A stretch of 14,698 nucleotides of DNA from a virus (UHGV-0229026), one strand, 5' to 3'; counted from the stretch's first letter, positions 10,954 to 14,405 are shown. The notes: generated by a model not told the origin, from the letters alone. Program-made: numbers and translations.

Positions 10954-11910
10954 ATGAATATGGTCGATTTATTTCGCGCCATGCTGCCACCTGTCAGTTA
11001 TGACCTGAACGGGAAATATATTTCCGCAGAACTGACAGCCGAGGCTGACGTCATGGAAGTCGTGAAGGCGTCAGCGGCGCGCGTTCTGACACAAATCACC
11101 CCGTTGCAGGCATCGATGACGCTGTCCGACTGGGAGCGCGTGTACGGTGTTATTCCTCGTGAAGGGGCAACACAACAGGAGCGGCGTCAGAACATTCTGG
11201 TAAAAATGGCTGCCACGGGGGGGCTGTCAATCCCTTACTTCAAAAGCCTTGCCGCCAGTCTGGGCTACACCATCACCATTACGGAGCCGCGACCATTCCG
11301 GGTGGGGATAAACCGCTGCGGCGACCGCCTGCTGATACCAGAAATCCGCTGGGCGTGGCAGGTCAATGTTATCGGGACAAAAACACCTGTCTACCGGTTC
11401 AGAACGGGCGCATCGGCAACCGGCGAACCGCTGACGGCCTTTGGTGAATCCATTTTAGAAAACACGTTTAAAGACCTTAAACCGGCTTTTACAGACTGTT
11501 ATTTCACTTATGAAATCACATCTCAGCCAGAGCCAGTATCACCACTGACAATTAACAGAATTCAGTTTCAGTCAGTATGTCATGCTGATGCGCCTCTGCT
11601 GATAAATAATGCCGGAATGCATTTTGCAGTTATTCCTGTACTGAAAGGTAAACCGCTCACAATCAACAATACGCAGCTTCAGGCGGGAAACCTGAGTCAG
11701 GAACCATTGCTGATTAACAGAATGCAACTATTGTCGGAGCGGCGAACTATTGAACCACTGACAGTTAATACCGTTCAGTGGCAGTCGGGAAGGCAGACCA
11801 CGGAGCCGATGACAATTAACAAAATACATTTACAAACAGCAAATAACAGCAGTACCCCATTAGTAGTTAACCATAATGGGCTGCACTTTGCCGTTATCAC
11901 AGAGCCTTAA
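10954..11910 (+). CDS. Baseplate/tail protein, P2 gpI-like (Mu gp48-like), with a C-terminal tandem-repeat extension
   Basis: Start chosen at ATG 10954 (GAGGGG SD 8 nt upstream, just after the upstream stop at 10949) rather than the longest-ORF ATG at 10918, which overlaps the previous gene. 319 aa; the last ~125 aa are seven tandem ~17-aa units encoded by lower-G+C DNA. Confidence 0.65.
   Translation: MNMVDLFRAMLPPVSYDLNGKYISAELTAEADVMEVVKASAARVLTQITPLQASMTLSDWERVYGVIPREGATQQERRQNILVKMAATGGLSIPYFKSLAASLGYTITITEPRPFRVGINRCGDRLLIPEIRWAWQVNVIGTKTPVYRFRTGASATGEPLTAFGESILENTFKDLKPAFTDCYFTYEITSQPEPVSPLTINRIQFQSVCHADAPLLINNAGMHFAVIPVLKGKPLTINNTQLQAGNLSQEPLLINRMQLLSERRTIEPLTVNTVQWQSGRQTTEPMTINKIHLQTANNSSTPLVVNHNGLHFAVITEP
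11539..11907 (+). repeat. Intragenic tandem repeat: seven ~51-bp units encoding a PL(T/L)(I/V)N..Q.Q motif
   Basis: Read directly from the translation: SPLTINRIQFQSVCHADA / PLLINNAGMHFAVIPVLKGK / PLTINNTQLQAGNLSQE / PLLINRMQLLSERRTIE / PLTVNTVQWQSGRQTTE / PMTINKIHLQTANNSST / PLVVNHNGLHFAVITEP. DNA units begin with ccactgaca / ccgctcaca / ccattgctg / ccactgaca / ccgatgaca / ccattagta. Confidence 0.8.
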
Positions 11911-11956
11911 ACAAAAGGTCTGATGTTGTTTATTTGTAATAACTACAGGAGAAATA

Positions 11957-12760
11957 ATGCAGAGTTTAATGCCCCCGGTGAATACGCCGGATAAGTTATT
12001 TCATGATGGTGACCCGACTCAGGGAATTGAGGGAACCATCGTTACTGCTGAATTTATGAATAATCATCAGGCAGCAACACGTGATTTGCAGCAGGAGGTG
12101 ATTAACGTCCTTAAAGAGGCTGGCGTCACCCCTGACCCGGAAAAACAAAACCAGCTGGTTGAGGCGCTGACCTCGTTTATTGGCCAGAAAGTCCCGGATG
12201 CATCGCTGACGCAAAAAGGCGTAGTGCGGCTTAACAGTGCTGTTAACAGTGAATCAGAAACAGAAGCGGCTACACCAAAAGCGGTCAGGATTGCGATGGA
12301 TAACGCAAACGCCAGACTGGCAAAAGACCGTAACGGCGCAGACATCCCGAATAAACAATTGTTTCTGGATAACATCAGCGGTGTGCCAAAAGCGCGTAAG
12401 GTCAACAACATGCCCCTGACTTCGGATATCACCATCAACAACATCAGCGGCAACGCCGGAACGGCAACCCGGCTTCAGACGGCCCGCAGGATTAACAATG
12501 TGCTGTTTGATGGCAGTAGCGATATCACTATCAGCAGCACCGATTCTGGTGCAGTACGTGATTTCAGGTATACCAGCGAAGTGTTTCACAATCCCGGTGG
12601 TAACGAAATTTCCTGGGTATTTCGCGCGCCTTCAGGTTGTATTTTGTCAGGTATTAACGTTCAGGAAACTGGCAAGAGCTCTGCGGATAACATCGGCGGC
12701 GTGTATTACAAACAAACTCAGATTTATATCAATGGCGGATGGCGCACGGTATCCGGCTAA
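11957..12760 (+). CDS. Tail fiber protein (short; P2 H / Mu S-type conserved motif)
   Basis: 267-aa ORF; AGGAG SD 5 nt upstream of ATG. Contains the conserved tail-fiber motif DASLTQKGVVRLNSAVNSESETEAATPKAVRIAMDNANARL (compare P2 H: DASLTAKGFTQLSSATNSTSETLAATPKAVK) and a C-terminal ...YINGGWRTVSG resembling P2 H's ...YINGTWYNV end; followed by a Tfa gene. Confidence 0.8.
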   Translation: MQSLMPPVNTPDKLFHDGDPTQGIEGTIVTAEFMNNHQAATRDLQQEVINVLKEAGVTPDPEKQNQLVEALTSFIGQKVPDASLTQKGVVRLNSAVNSESETEAATPKAVRIAMDNANARLAKDRNGADIPNKQLFLDNISGVPKARKVNNMPLTSDITINNISGNAGTATRLQTARRINNVLFDGSSDITISSTDSGAVRDFRYTSEVFHNPGGNEISWVFRAPSGCILSGINVQETGKSSADNIGGVYYKQTQIYINGGWRTVSG

Positions 12761-12774
12761 TTAAGGAGAAAATA

Positions 12775-13293
12775 ATGGAACTCAGAAACGTCACGCGTTA
12801 TTACCCGAAAGAGATGCCTTATGGTGAAGGCATTCAGTATTTCCGCAGTGAAGACGGACAGGATTTTTATGAATCCATGGACAAATTCACGAAGAGATAC
12901 AAATTGTGCATTCACCCTGAAAGTGGCGTGATTTATTCAATGGCGGAAGACGTGTCCCGTCTTTATCCGACAGGTTTCACCATTGTGGAAGTTGATGAAC
13001 TGCCGGAAGGTTTTGGCATTGAAGCCAGTTGGTATTACAAAGACGGCGAAGTGCTGCCGGTTCCTGTTGATTATTCGCAACTGGCAGAAAAACAACGCCA
13101 GCATCTGCTGACTGAAGCAAAGGACATCACATCTGACTGGAAAACCGAGCTGGAGCTGGGCACCATCAGTGATGACGACAAGGCCCACCTGATGCAGTGG
13201 ATGGCGTATATCAAAGAGGTGAAGGCTCTGAATTTAAGTCATGTGAGTGATAAGGAGTCTTTTGATTTTATTCAATGGCCACAAAAACCATGA
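12775..13293 (+). CDS. Tail fiber assembly chaperone (Tfa; Mu U / P2 G-like)
   Basis: 172 aa from ATG 12775, with AAGGAG SD at 12763-12768; the longest-ORF start at 12739 overlaps the tail fiber gene and lacks an SD. Immediately downstream of the tail fiber gene; size typical of Tfa. Confidence 0.8.
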   Translation: MELRNVTRYYPKEMPYGEGIQYFRSEDGQDFYESMDKFTKRYKLCIHPESGVIYSMAEDVSRLYPTGFTIVEVDELPEGFGIEASWYYKDGEVLPVPVDYSQLAEKQRQHLLTEAKDITSDWKTELELGTISDDDKAHLMQWMAYIKEVKALNLSHVSDKESFDFIQWPQKP

Positions 13294-13349
13294 GCTAACT
13301 TTTTGTGGTATTCAGAAATATATTAACCGACACAAAAGGAAAGCAGACC

Positions 13350-14405
13350 TTGAATATTATAAAACTCGAAAGTTTTCGACAAATTCCGGCGAATGAGGGA
13401 TTGTGCGAGAACTATTATTCAACAAATATTATTTCAGCACTGAACGAAAACGGTGTCACGCTTATCAATGATATGTCCGGTTCTGTAACATCCGTCTGTC
13501 GTGGCACTCAGGCCGTAAATACTGTAGAAAGAACGGGGCTGATTTTCACGACATCCTCATATGTCACACTGTACAGCACACTTCCGGACTTAAAAGCCTC
13601 AGCTGTACAGCTGGGATTTCGTCTGACATTAAGTGCGGGAAAGAAATATTCATCTTCGCCATCCCACATCAGGATTAATGGCTATTCATTTACAACCCCG
13701 TATCCTGATGAAGCAGCCAGTTATTACTATGAAATTTTCGCAACGCGAAACGAAAACGGCTATGTCTCAGCCAGTCTGTACTGCAACCGCTCATTAGTTG
13801 GAAATACATCGTTTTATGTACCAGATGACCGGACTGACAAAATTCAGGTGAGTATTGGTAGTGGTGACAATATTTTTTCATCGGGTGCATCCGGCACGTT
13901 AATGCTGGGTGATATGTACTGTGGAACAGTGACATACGGTAGAAATAATAGTGCAGAACCCGCCCTGCTCGGAAGCATTGAGGTCAGATACAGCCCGGTA
14001 ACGGCATTTACCGGTGGAAGCGCCAAAAACTCACTGAATAAAGATATTGTCACGGGGCTGAACACCTCTGACAGCGAGGCCGGATATCTGATGCTCTCGC
14101 CGTCCCTGAATGCAGCACAGGCCACGTTTGGTGCGGTGGATAACGTCAACAGTGATGTTGTGGCCGTTATGGCCTCGGTCACTTACCGCGGTGCTGATGC
14201 CCCCAATAACCGCCTGGCCTGGAAAGTGAAAAATGGCAGCCATGAAGGTGCAACGATTACAGAGAATGGCGTACAAAGTGACACAAACAGCTGGACGACT
14301 GTCTCACAGAGTTTTATGACTCAACCAGGAGGGGGTACTCCCTTCGCTAAGGGAGAGCTGATTTTTACAGCTGAGCTGCATAACATAACAAGAAATATAG
14401 CCTGA
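13350..14405 (+). CDS. Hypothetical protein of unknown function; low-G+C orphan gene downstream of the tail fiber module (candidate moron / accessory gene)
   Basis: Long ORF open from GTG 13305 to TGA 14405; start called at TTG 13350 because AAGGAAAG (13336-13343) lies 6 nt upstream, while GTG 13305 has no SD. About 351 aa, rich in Ser/Thr/Gly/Asn/Tyr, no N-terminal signal-peptide-like segment or recognisable catalytic motif. Much lower G+C than the tail genes. Confidence 0.6.
   Translation: MNIIKLESFRQIPANEGLCENYYSTNIISALNENGVTLINDMSGSVTSVCRGTQAVNTVERTGLIFTTSSYVTLYSTLPDLKASAVQLGFRLTLSAGKKYSSSPSHIRINGYSFTTPYPDEAASYYYEIFATRNENGYVSASLYCNRSLVGNTSFYVPDDRTDKIQVSIGSGDNIFSSGASGTLMLGDMYCGTVTYGRNNSAEPALLGSIEVRYSPVTAFTGGSAKNSLNKDIVTGLNTSDSEAGYLMLSPSLNAAQATFGAVDNVNSDVVAVMASVTYRGADAPNNRLAWKVKNGSHEGATITENGVQSDTNSWTTVSQSFMTQPGGGTPFAKGELIFTAELHNITRNIA

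What the first reader, a model, noticed from the sequence alone, without database searches (positions are those of the whole stretch)
11500..14405. Compositional break: the distal tail module (gpI repeats, tail fiber, Tfa, orphan gene) is markedly AT-richer than the core tail genes
Hand counts on 60-bp samples give about 55% G+C in the sheath gene, about 42% at 11521-11580 and about 37% at 13381-13440. The shift begins inside the gpI-like gene at the start of its repeat region. This is the signature of mosaic host-range modules swapped by recombination.
Basis: seen in the sequence. Interest (0 to 1): 0.4.

Follow-up and report, generated by a model that had tools for sequence, protein, structure and literature searches.

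The report
Mosaic phage host-range module with docking cassette
The drop in G+C at about 11,450-11,500 is real and marks where a Mu-like E. coli prophage has patched several foreign pieces onto its tail genes, including a little-known pair that always travels together: a 17-residue repeat tail on a baseplate protein and a lectin-like "orphan" protein.

Summary
G+C falls from 56.7% (1-11439) to 45.7% (to the prophage end at 14512). The change point lies at 11422-11459 and no shuffle approached its score. GC3 falls from 0.57-0.69 to 0.42-0.53.

The mosaic interpretation is supported and can be refined. Related E. coli Mu-like prophages are collinear up to 11513. Beyond that, the region is a patchwork of at least four segments with different relatives.

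The "gpI repeats" (11514-11910) are a real coding domain of seven 17-20-residue units fused to the gp48/YmfQ baseplate wedge protein. NCBI annotates this gene as a pseudogene.

The "orphan" gene (13350-14405, phrog_8291) has a fixed partner. In about 30 loci it sits 1-40 nt downstream of whichever protein carries this repeat domain, with one exception. Carriers are gp48, side-fibre stems or a small free protein. Only this prophage lineage has the fibre and Tfa genes wedged between the two.

The orphan models confidently as tandem concanavalin-A-like jelly rolls, resembling tail-cluster proteins of other phages that are annotated as virion structural.

My inference is a portable two-part accessory receptor-binding cassette. 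Physical binding between the two parts is not shown.

The mosaicism itself is ordinary; the cassette is uncharacterised and moderately interesting.

The parts
11422..11459 (.). Support interval of the single best G+C change point (0.567 left, 0.457 right)
   Evidence: Likelihood change-point scan and block-shuffle control; profile
10954..11513 (+). Conserved N-terminal domain of the gp48/YmfQ (P2 gpI-like) baseplate wedge protein; G+C 0.539, GC3 0.60
   Evidence: Pfam PF10076 Phage_Mu_Gp48, E 5.7e-30, residues 9-187. phrog_203 baseplate wedge subunit. 98% identical to L002 and 95% to L003 up to 11513. Present in 38 E. coli genomes.
11514..11910 (+). In-frame C-terminal extension of gp48. It holds seven repeat units (six of 17 aa, one of 20 aa) at 11542-11907, consensus P-L-x-I-N-x-x-Q-L-Q-x-G, with two variant units ending G-x-H-F-A-V. 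G+C 0.44, GC3 0.42.
   Evidence: Unit map. 51-nt periodic DNA copies at 62-74% identity; Tandem Repeats Finder reports nothing. In relatives the segment is replaced by 3 nt. At DNA level it occurs in only 7 of 5426 E. coli genomes. A homologous domain sits on other carriers. dN/dS is 0.23-0.5. RefSeq annotates the gene as a truncated pseudogene.
11911..11956 (+). Spacer between gp48-long and the fibre gene. ACAAAAGG at 11911-11918 repeats the 8-mer at 13334-13341 in the orphan leader. Homology to L002 resumes at 11948.
   Evidence: Direct reading and junction comparison
11957..12760 (+). Tail fibre gene (267 aa), itself chimeric. The 5' part to about 12500 is L002-like (92-100%). 12399-12760 is L004-like (95-100%, and 100% over 12519-12790).
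   Evidence: Pfam PF03406 Phage_fiber_2; phrog_1833; sliding identity
12775..13293 (+). Tail fibre assembly protein (Tfa, 172 aa)
   Evidence: Pfam PF02413 Caudo_TAP, E 4.6e-19; phrog_136; 95-100% identical to L004 up to about 13150
13334..13349 (+). Leader of the orphan gene (ACAAAAGGAAAGCAGACC). Homology to orphan loci elsewhere starts here.
13350..14405 (+). 'Orphan' gene: 351 aa, TTG start, phrog_8291. Predicted tandem concanavalin-A-like jelly-roll protein. Constant downstream partner of the repeat domain.
14423..14512 (+). Conserved right end of the Mu-like prophage, ending ...ACA
   Evidence: 80-81% identical to the ends of L003 and L033. Identity to L001 stops at 14512.
14513..14698 (.). 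E. coli chromosomal flank (29.6% G+C); not part of the prophage
   Evidence: Present in 1650 E. coli genomes; absent next to the same prophage in L001

Best explanation
The window is the tail half and right end of a Mu-like transposable prophage of E. coli. Its conserved tail and baseplate core (about 57% G+C) ends at 11513, inside gene gp48. Everything distal to that point (about 46% G+C) was assembled by recombination from at least four sources that circulate among E. coli phages. This much is shown.

The first acquired piece adds a 131-residue array of seven 17-20-residue repeats to the C-terminus of gp48. In Mu, gp48 is the baseplate wedge protein on which the tail fibre docks. The last acquired piece is the 'orphan' gene. 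The two form a portable pair: elsewhere the orphan gene follows directly after whichever protein ends in this repeat array. This is shown by genomic association.

I infer that the repeat array is a docking domain and that the orphan, a tandem lectin-like jelly-roll protein, is a virion component held by it. It would serve as an accessory receptor-binding or glycan-acting tip. On this reading the phage carries two host-recognition devices on each baseplate wedge: the ordinary 267-aa fibre with its Tfa, and the gp48-tethered lectin-like protein.

The confidence value applies to the whole statement including the inferred docking role. The mosaic origin alone I put at about 0.9, the functional linkage of array and orphan at about 0.85, and the docking/virion-tip role at about 0.5.
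For: Composition:
- The change point and the GC3 drop are established.

Mosaic structure:
- Collinearity with L002 and L003 ends at 11513, and 434 nt here correspond to 3 nt in those relatives.
- The fibre 5' part is L002-like. The fibre tip and Tfa are 95-100% L004-like. The orphan is 97.7% L004-like but in permuted order.
- Other genes occupy the orphan's position in L002 and L003.

The extension is a real domain:
- It is in frame and homologous on gp48 proteins with unrelated N-terminal sequences.
- It also occurs on fibre stems and on a 133-aa protein.
- dN/dS is 0.23-0.5 with saturated dS.
- Copy number changes by whole units; L022 and L023 differ by 17 aa.

Linkage:
- All 27 IMG/VR loci with an orphan homologue (50-99% identity) and available upstream DNA have the repeat domain ending 20-40 nt upstream.
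- All 17 repeat-domain loci with available downstream DNA have the orphan.
- Divergent orphans in a lambdoid prophage and in a Raoultella myophage also have the domain upstream.
- Three carriers found only through the repeat profile are each followed, 1-28 nt on, by an orphan homologue.
- The relatives L002 and L003 have neither element.

Structural role of the orphan:
- The gene is on the same strand as the tail genes, and no promoter or terminator lies between Tfa and the orphan.
- The confident model matches, over its full length (TM 0.6-0.66), ~350-aa proteins of siphophages. The top match is annotated 'virion structural protein' in phage AchV4. In that phage the name was given to tail-cluster proteins detected by LC-MS/MS (PMC7996906).
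- Its domains match lectins, carbohydrate-binding modules and polysaccharide lyases.

Place on the baseplate:
- In Mu there is one gp48 per wedge and it docks the fibre N-terminus (PMC11915804).
Against: - No experiment or complex prediction shows that the orphan binds the repeat array.
- The monomer model of the array is poor (pLDDT 48.5), so its fold is unknown.
- gp48 is present once per wedge, whereas fibre stems are trimers. The same array would therefore have to work in both stoichiometries.
- The orphan is evenly conserved along its length. It is 97% identical between lineages whose repeat arrays are only about 45% identical. This is unlike typical fast-evolving receptor-binding tips and shows no tight co-variation with the array.
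- One divergent orphan lineage (L050/L051) has no detectable repeat domain upstream.
- Neither element occurs in any of 50,697 deposited phage genomes, so no virion carrying them has been studied.
Confidence: 0.55

Rival explanations
1. The orphan is an assembly chaperone for the repeat array. Like Tfa or T4 gp38/gp57-type factors, it would be needed to fold the array but would not be a functional part of the virion. The array itself would be the functional appendage.
For: Chaperone genes typically lie immediately downstream of the fibre gene whose C-terminus they fold, which is the arrangement seen here. The orphan is conserved rather than hypervariable. The array alone does not give a confident monomer model.
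Against: At 351 aa with two lectin-like jelly rolls it is much larger than known fibre chaperones and unlike them; it has no Caudo_TAP, DUF4376 or GP38 match. Full-length structural analogues in other phages include a protein annotated as virion structural. Some Tfa proteins also stay bound and contact the host, so this rival partly merges with the main explanation.
Confidence: 0.2
2. The orphan is a non-structural cargo gene (a 'moron') at the prophage end, for example a lysogenic-conversion or exclusion factor. Its low G+C would simply reflect recent acquisition unrelated to the tail.
For: In this window it is the last gene before the prophage end, where Mu-like phages carry accessory genes such as com and mom. 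It has a TTG start and low G+C, and no annotated function.
Against: In nearly all other loci it lies inside the tail operon, directly after the repeat-bearing structural gene and often before the fibre genes. The association holds across Mu-like, lambdoid, another myophage (Raoultella) and T-even-like contexts. It has no promoter of its own and no match to defence models.
Confidence: 0.08
3. The gp48 extension is non-functional debris: an insertion that happened to stay in frame, so that gp48 here is a damaged gene, as the RefSeq pseudogene call implies. The G+C drop would then only mark junk DNA.
For: RefSeq marks the gene 'incomplete; missing C-terminus'. The segment is rare at DNA level, in 7 of 5426 genomes.
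Against: The reading frame is open for 318 codons. Homologous arrays sit in frame on at least ten different carriers. dN/dS is below 0.5 with saturated synonymous sites. Motif positions are invariant. In L004 the equivalent long protein is annotated as intact.
Confidence: 0.03
4. The composition shift reflects functional constraints on fibre-type proteins (Asn-, Thr-, Ile- and Ser-rich sequences) rather than foreign origin.
For: GC1 and GC2 also fall in some distal genes. Local dips to 0.50 occur within the core as well.
Against: GC3 falls by 0.1-0.25. The breakpoints coincide with loss of homology to relatives.
Confidence: 0.03

Closest known systems
Horizontal exchange of tail fibre/Tfa cassettes among P2-, Mu-, P1- and lambda-type phages. 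This classic tail-fibre mosaicism is cited from my own knowledge of the literature, e.g. Haggard-Ljungquist et al. 1992.
   Same: The conserved tail core is joined to host-range genes of different ancestry. Junctions fall inside the fibre gene and at intergenic ribosome-binding regions. The fibre tip plus Tfa is shared almost identically with an otherwise different prophage.
   Different: The first junction lies inside the baseplate wedge gene rather than the fibre gene. One of the exchanged units is a pair of elements that has not been described.
Mu gp48 / P2 gpI / E. coli e14 YmfQ baseplate wedge protein (BW3), the fibre-docking subunit
   Same: Residues 1-187 match PF10076. The gene order gp45-gp46-gp47-gp48-fibre-Tfa is that of Mu. 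In Mu, gp48 carries the fibre-docking loop and is present once per wedge (PMC11915804).
   Different: It carries an extra 131-residue C-terminal repeat array that the ~190-aa proteins of the close relatives L002, L003 and L059 lack.
Separately encoded tip adhesins and branched receptor-binding systems: T2/S16 gp38 on the gp37 tip, and anchor-branch systems of G7C, CBA120 and Klebsiella phages. Named from my own knowledge; a general example is PMC13579863, listed.
   Same: The logic matches: one structural protein supplies a docking domain, and a second, separately encoded protein from the next gene supplies the distal function. The cassette can be moved between anchors.
   Different: There is no sequence or fold relationship. 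The orphan has no GP38 Pfam match, and the docking element is a 17-residue repeat array with no Pfam or PDB relative. Binding is not demonstrated.
Mu G-segment host-range switch (invertible S/U and S'/U' genes with the Gin invertase)
   Same: A Mu-like phage with more than one host-recognition option encoded at its right end.
   Different: No long inverted repeats flank the fibre genes, and no invertase lies between them and the prophage end. Both devices would be expressed together rather than alternately.

Membership tests
Mu gp48 / YmfQ baseplate wedge protein (PF10076) | Significant match to the family profile over the whole domain | tested here: met
   E 5.7e-30, 104.6 bits against a cut-off of 37.4, residues 9-187 against profile positions 5-150 of 150
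Mu gp48 / YmfQ baseplate wedge protein (PF10076) | Position directly after the Baseplate_J/gp47 gene and before the fibre gene | tested here: met
   gp47 at 9870-10949, gp48 at 10954-11910, fibre at 11957-12760
Mu gp48 / YmfQ baseplate wedge protein (PF10076) | Typical length of about 190 aa, ending at the conserved C-terminal strand | tested here: not met
   318 aa here against 190 aa in L002 and L003. The excess is the repeat array. The protein is a member that carries an added domain.
Horizontally exchanged host-range module | Composition differs from the adjacent core, including at synonymous sites | tested here: met
Horizontally exchanged host-range module | Discrete homology breakpoints, with different nearest relatives on each side | tested here: met
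Tail fibre plus Tfa pair (Phage_fiber_2 / Caudo_TAP) | Profile matches and adjacency | tested here: met
   PF03406, E 5.8e-19, and PF02413, E 4.6e-19, on adjacent genes
Mu-type invertible G segment | Inverted repeats flanking alternative fibre genes, plus a Gin-type invertase | tested here: not met
   Longest inverted repeats are 14-20 nt at 74-93% complementarity. No further gene lies between the orphan and the prophage end.
T-even gp38-type tip adhesin | GP38 / Gp38_N profile match | tested here: not met
   No Pfam match for the orphan. The resemblance is one of gene arrangement only.
Concanavalin-A-like lectin/glucanase fold (orphan protein) | Beta-jelly-roll sandwich superimposable on lectins, carbohydrate-binding modules and PL7-type lyases | tested here: met
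Concanavalin-A-like lectin/glucanase fold (orphan protein) | Sugar-binding or catalytic residues | not tested
   Sequence identity to all matches is 5-15%, and no residue mapping was attempted.
Anti-phage defence systems | Match to a PADLOC model | tested here: not met
   No match for the orphan, gp48-long, the fibre or Tfa
Virion structural protein (orphan) | Detected in purified particles | not testable with these tools
   Only indirect support: the top full-length structural analogue, from phage AchV4, is annotated 'virion structural protein', a name that paper gave to tail-cluster proteins detected by LC-MS/MS.

The most novel reading that the evidence does not exclude
The 17-residue repeat array and the phrog_8291 protein form a previously undescribed, portable two-part host-recognition cassette. 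The array would be a universal docking handle that can be fused to a baseplate wedge protein, to side-fibre stems of lambdoid and myophage tails, or to a small free-standing protein. The lectin-like partner would bind it and contact, or cut, a surface glycan. In this prophage the handle is fused directly to gp48. That would give a Mu-like phage a second, fibre-less receptor-binding device on every wedge without any invertible segment.
Probability: 0.45. Interest if true: 0.55.

Novelty: new variant of a known kind. Interest (0 to 1): 0.4.

Why it matters
The compositional break by itself is a textbook sign of tail-fibre mosaicism and adds little.

What it uncovers is more useful. A rare pair of elements has no Pfam, NCBIfam or PDB relative and no representative in any deposited phage genome, yet it moves as a unit between very different tail architectures. 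If the repeat array is a generic docking handle for a lectin-like tip protein, it would be a compact, naturally modular system for re-targeting phages and tailocins.

It would also explain a class of 'hypothetical' genes next to fibre genes in E. coli prophages.

It exposes a systematic annotation error as well: long gp48/YmfQ genes are called pseudogenes because the family model ends at residue ~190.

Tried and rejected
- **Tandem Repeats Finder:** it found no array in 11400-12000. The repeats are visible only at protein level and as 62-74% identical 51-nt copies.
- **Word-indexed protein searches with the extension:** they returned only 1 and 5 proteins.
- **Exhaustive profile search:** the profile also contained fibre-stem columns. 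Most of its 86 hits were therefore to ordinary fibre repeats, and only about ten carried the array.
- **AlphaFold model of the extension alone:** it was poor (pLDDT 48.5), so nothing can be said about its fold or oligomeric state.
- **Sequence search of the Protein Data Bank with the extension profile:** only chance-level hits.
- **tblastn against 50,697 phage records:** no match for either the orphan or the extension, and megablast of the region found none.
- **Promoter and terminator scan:** no sign of a separate transcription unit for the orphan.
- **Inverted-repeat search:** nothing resembling a G segment.
- **Conservation profile of the orphan:** no conserved-N, variable-C gradient of the kind many receptor-binding proteins show.
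- **The 1729 'related' records:** these turned out to be due to the 186-bp chromosomal flank, not to the prophage.
- **Literature searches for YmfQ and for lectin-like fibre adaptors:** nothing on this pair.
- **P0030:** no genomic context could be found for it.
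Full report
**What the window is.** The window holds the tail half and right end of a Mu-like prophage of E. coli.
- Pfam and PHROG scans identify these genes: sheath (1648-3069), tape measure (3999-6272), DNA-circularisation protein (6272-7621), gpP/gp44 hub (7605-8816), gp45 spike (8813-9466), gp46 (9520-9870), Baseplate_J/gp47 (9870-10949), gp48/YmfQ (10954-11910), a 267-aa fibre (11957-12760), a Caudo_TAP assembly protein (12775-13293), and a 351-aa protein of unknown function, phrog_8291 (13350-14405, TTG start).
- The window is 99.9% identical over 1-14512 to a prophage in E. coli strain 54214. There the prophage lies next to carB.
- Here the last 186 bases are a different, common piece of E. 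coli chromosome.
- The prophage ends ...ACA at 14512. Its last 90 bases are about 80% identical to the ends of other Mu-like prophages.

**The observation.** The drop in G+C is real.
- The 500-bp profile runs at 0.55-0.63 up to about 11250 and at 0.40-0.51 afterwards.
- A likelihood scan puts the single best change point after 11439 (support 11422-11459). G+C is 0.567 to the left and 0.457 to the right. The log-likelihood ratio is 59, against a maximum of 17.7 in 1000 block shuffles.
- Third-codon-position G+C is 0.57-0.69 in every core gene. It is 0.42, 0.53, 0.50 and 0.45 in the gp48 extension, fibre, Tfa and orphan. Protein composition is therefore not the cause.
- The statistical change point sits about 75 nt upstream of the homology breakpoint, because the end of the conserved gp48 domain is itself AT-rich.

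**Breakpoint map.** Two related prophages, L002 (strain C5) and L003, are collinear with the window up to 11513: from 3509 in L002 and from 6027 in L003, whose tape-measure region is diverged and gapped. Both are 95-98% identical over 10900-11513.
- At 11513 the relatives have 3 nt where the window has 434 nt (11514-11947). Their gp48 is 190 aa and abuts the fibre gene.
- Homology to L002 resumes at 11948 and is 92-100% up to about 12500. It then drops to 72-80% over the fibre tip.
- From 12399 to about 13150 the window is instead 95-100% identical to L004, a quite different Mu-like prophage. Over 12519-12790 the identity is 100%.
- The orphan gene (13334-14378) is 97.7% identical to L004's. 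In L004 it lies upstream of the fibre genes, directly after gp48.
- In L002 and L003 the orphan's position holds a second fibre gene plus a DUF4376 gene.
- The distal 3 kb is therefore a patchwork of at least four segments.

**The 'gpI repeats'.** The 434-nt piece continues the gp48 reading frame for 131 more residues.
- It consists of seven units, six of 17 aa and one of 20 aa, at 11542-11907. The pattern is P-L-x-I-N-x-x-Q-L-Q-x-G. Two variant units, the second and the last, read P-L-x-I/V-N-x-x-G-x-H-F-A-V.
- At DNA level the units are only 62-74% alike, and Tandem Repeats Finder sees nothing. The array is therefore old and not a product of recent slippage.
- RefSeq annotates the gene as a truncated pseudogene. 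That call is wrong, for three reasons.
  - Homologous arrays sit in frame at the C-terminus of gp48 proteins whose N-terminal domains are mutually dissimilar (L004, L005, L021, L022). They also sit on side-fibre stems with the PF08400 N-terminal domain, on one fibre with a different, unclassified N-terminus (L017/P0038), and on a free-standing 133-aa protein.
  - dN/dS between variants is 0.23-0.5, with synonymous sites saturated between the window and L004.
  - Copy number varies from about 3 to 7 by whole units; L022 and L023 differ by exactly 17 aa.
- The domain is rare. About ten representatives carry it among 1.84 billion proteins. It has no Pfam or PDB relative and no match in 50,697 phage records.

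**The 'orphan' gene has a fixed partner.**
- A scan of IMG/VR with an alignment of 25 orphan-family proteins returned 28 loci at 50-99% identity.
- In all 27 loci with upstream DNA, the reading frame ending 20-40 nt upstream of the orphan ends in the repeat array.
- Conversely, all 17 loci found with the array and having downstream DNA contain the orphan.
- More divergent orphans (42-53% identity) in a lambdoid prophage (J, lom, fibre stem plus four repeats, orphan) and in a Raoultella myophage also follow an array.
- Three carriers found only through the array profile (P0032, P0045, P0049) are each followed 1-28 nt downstream by an orphan homologue, with HMM E-values of 1e-123 to 1e-162.
- The relatives L002 and L003 have neither element.
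- There is one exception. The most divergent orphan lineage (L050/L051, 41% identity) has no detectable array upstream.
- Only the window's own lineage (window, L001, L006/L034, L007) has the fibre and Tfa genes between the array and the orphan.
- The 8-mer ACAAAAGG directly after the gp48-long stop codon (11911-11918) recurs at 13334-13341, at the start of the orphan's leader. This suggests that the array was captured with the first bases of its native downstream spacer.

**What the orphan looks like.**
- With the 25-sequence alignment, AlphaFold2 gives a confident all-beta model (pLDDT 89.8, pTM 0.88).
- Foldseek against the PDB gives only such partial matches.
- Against predicted viral structures it matches over its full length (TM 0.6-0.66, E 1e-15 to 1e-11). 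The targets are ~350-aa proteins of siphophages, including three paralogues in Serratia phage JS26 and a 'virion structural protein' of Achromobacter phage AchV4. In AchV4 that label was given to tail-cluster proteins detected in particles by LC-MS/MS (PMC7996906).
- The orphan has no Pfam, NCBIfam or defence-system match.
- No promoter or terminator separates it from Tfa.

**Mechanism.**
- Shown: the G+C break marks recombination junctions, the gp48 extension is a selected protein domain, and the array and the orphan are inherited as a unit across Mu-like, lambdoid, another myophage (Raoultella) and T-even-like contexts.
- Inferred: the array is a docking handle and the orphan is a virion protein held by it, acting as an accessory receptor-binding or glycan-acting tip.
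- In Mu there is one gp48 per wedge, and it anchors the trimeric fibre through an internal loop (PMC11915804). This phage would therefore carry, on each wedge, both the ordinary short fibre and a gp48-tethered lectin-like protein.
- Several points count against the inference, or remain open.
  - No binding evidence exists.
  - The array alone models poorly.
  - The same array would have to function on a monomeric wedge protein and on trimeric stems.
  - The orphan is evenly conserved. It is 97% identical between lineages whose arrays are about 45% identical. Typical receptor-binding tips evolve much faster.
- The chaperone-only reading remains a serious rival. The 'moron' and 'junk insertion' readings are poorly supported.

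**Composition of the cassette elsewhere.** In nine of ten other loci examined, both the array and the orphan are lower in G+C than the tail genes upstream of them; L054 is the exception. The AT-richness therefore travels with the cassette.

**Verdict.** The finding is correct and its interpretation holds, but compositional mosaicism of phage host-range genes is well known. The added value is the uncharacterised array-plus-lectin pair and the annotation error it causes. I rate the overall interest as moderate.

Noticed in passing
window 10954-11910; L001 13455-14018; L005 6033-6617: RefSeq (PGAP) annotates the long gp48/YmfQ gene as 'incomplete; missing C-terminus'. The frame is in fact open for 318 codons. 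The same call is made in strain B7A, whereas the equivalent 324-aa protein in L004 is annotated as intact. The likely cause is that the family model ends at about residue 190.
   Followed up: yes
window 14512/14513; L001 17013: The same prophage (99.9% identical) is flanked by carB in strain 54214, but here by a different, AT-rich chromosomal intergenic segment present in 1650 E. coli genomes. The element ends ...ACA. This is consistent with Mu-type transposition into varied sites.
   Followed up: partly
window 13350; L004 7016; L005 7016; L016 4329; L022 8001; L030 8001: Nearly all members of the orphan family examined start with TTG, preceded by an AAAGGAG-type ribosome-binding site 1-40 nt after the stop codon of the repeat-bearing gene. 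The L061/L062 homologues appear to start with ATG. The conserved weak start codon may set a fixed low ratio to the upstream protein.
   Followed up: no
L022 6737-7975 versus L023 6788-7975; L024: Otherwise near-identical carriers differ by exactly one 17-aa unit. In L024 several units have been homogenised (PLVINRVMLQSGR repeated). The array therefore expands, contracts and undergoes conversion.
   Followed up: partly
L061 1-6463: In a T-even-like context (a 1386-aa gp37-like fibre with Peptidase_S74, then two Gp38-type adhesin genes), the repeat array sits on a free-standing 133-aa protein followed by an orphan homologue. The cassette therefore also exists without any recognisable anchor domain.
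   Followed up: partly
L050 5002-7080 and L051: The most divergent orphan homologue (41% identity) follows a 257-aa fibre-stem protein and a 64-aa ORF, neither with a detectable repeat array. The 64-aa ORF contains PLVIKHAVVSVG, which may be a degenerate single unit.
   Followed up: no
NZ_OZ547097.1 and NZ_OZ547049.1 (hits H4, H5): Two of the seven copies of this prophage lie on ~249-kb records classed as plasmids. I did not check whether these are true replicons or unplaced assembly pieces.
   Followed up: no
window 3467-6027 versus L003: The tape-measure region is only 82% identical to L003, with a gap at 5684-6026, while flanking genes are 96% identical. L003's tape-measure gene is also shorter. 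This is a second, weaker mosaic patch within the 'core', and it coincides with the local G+C dip at 4750-5500.
   Followed up: no
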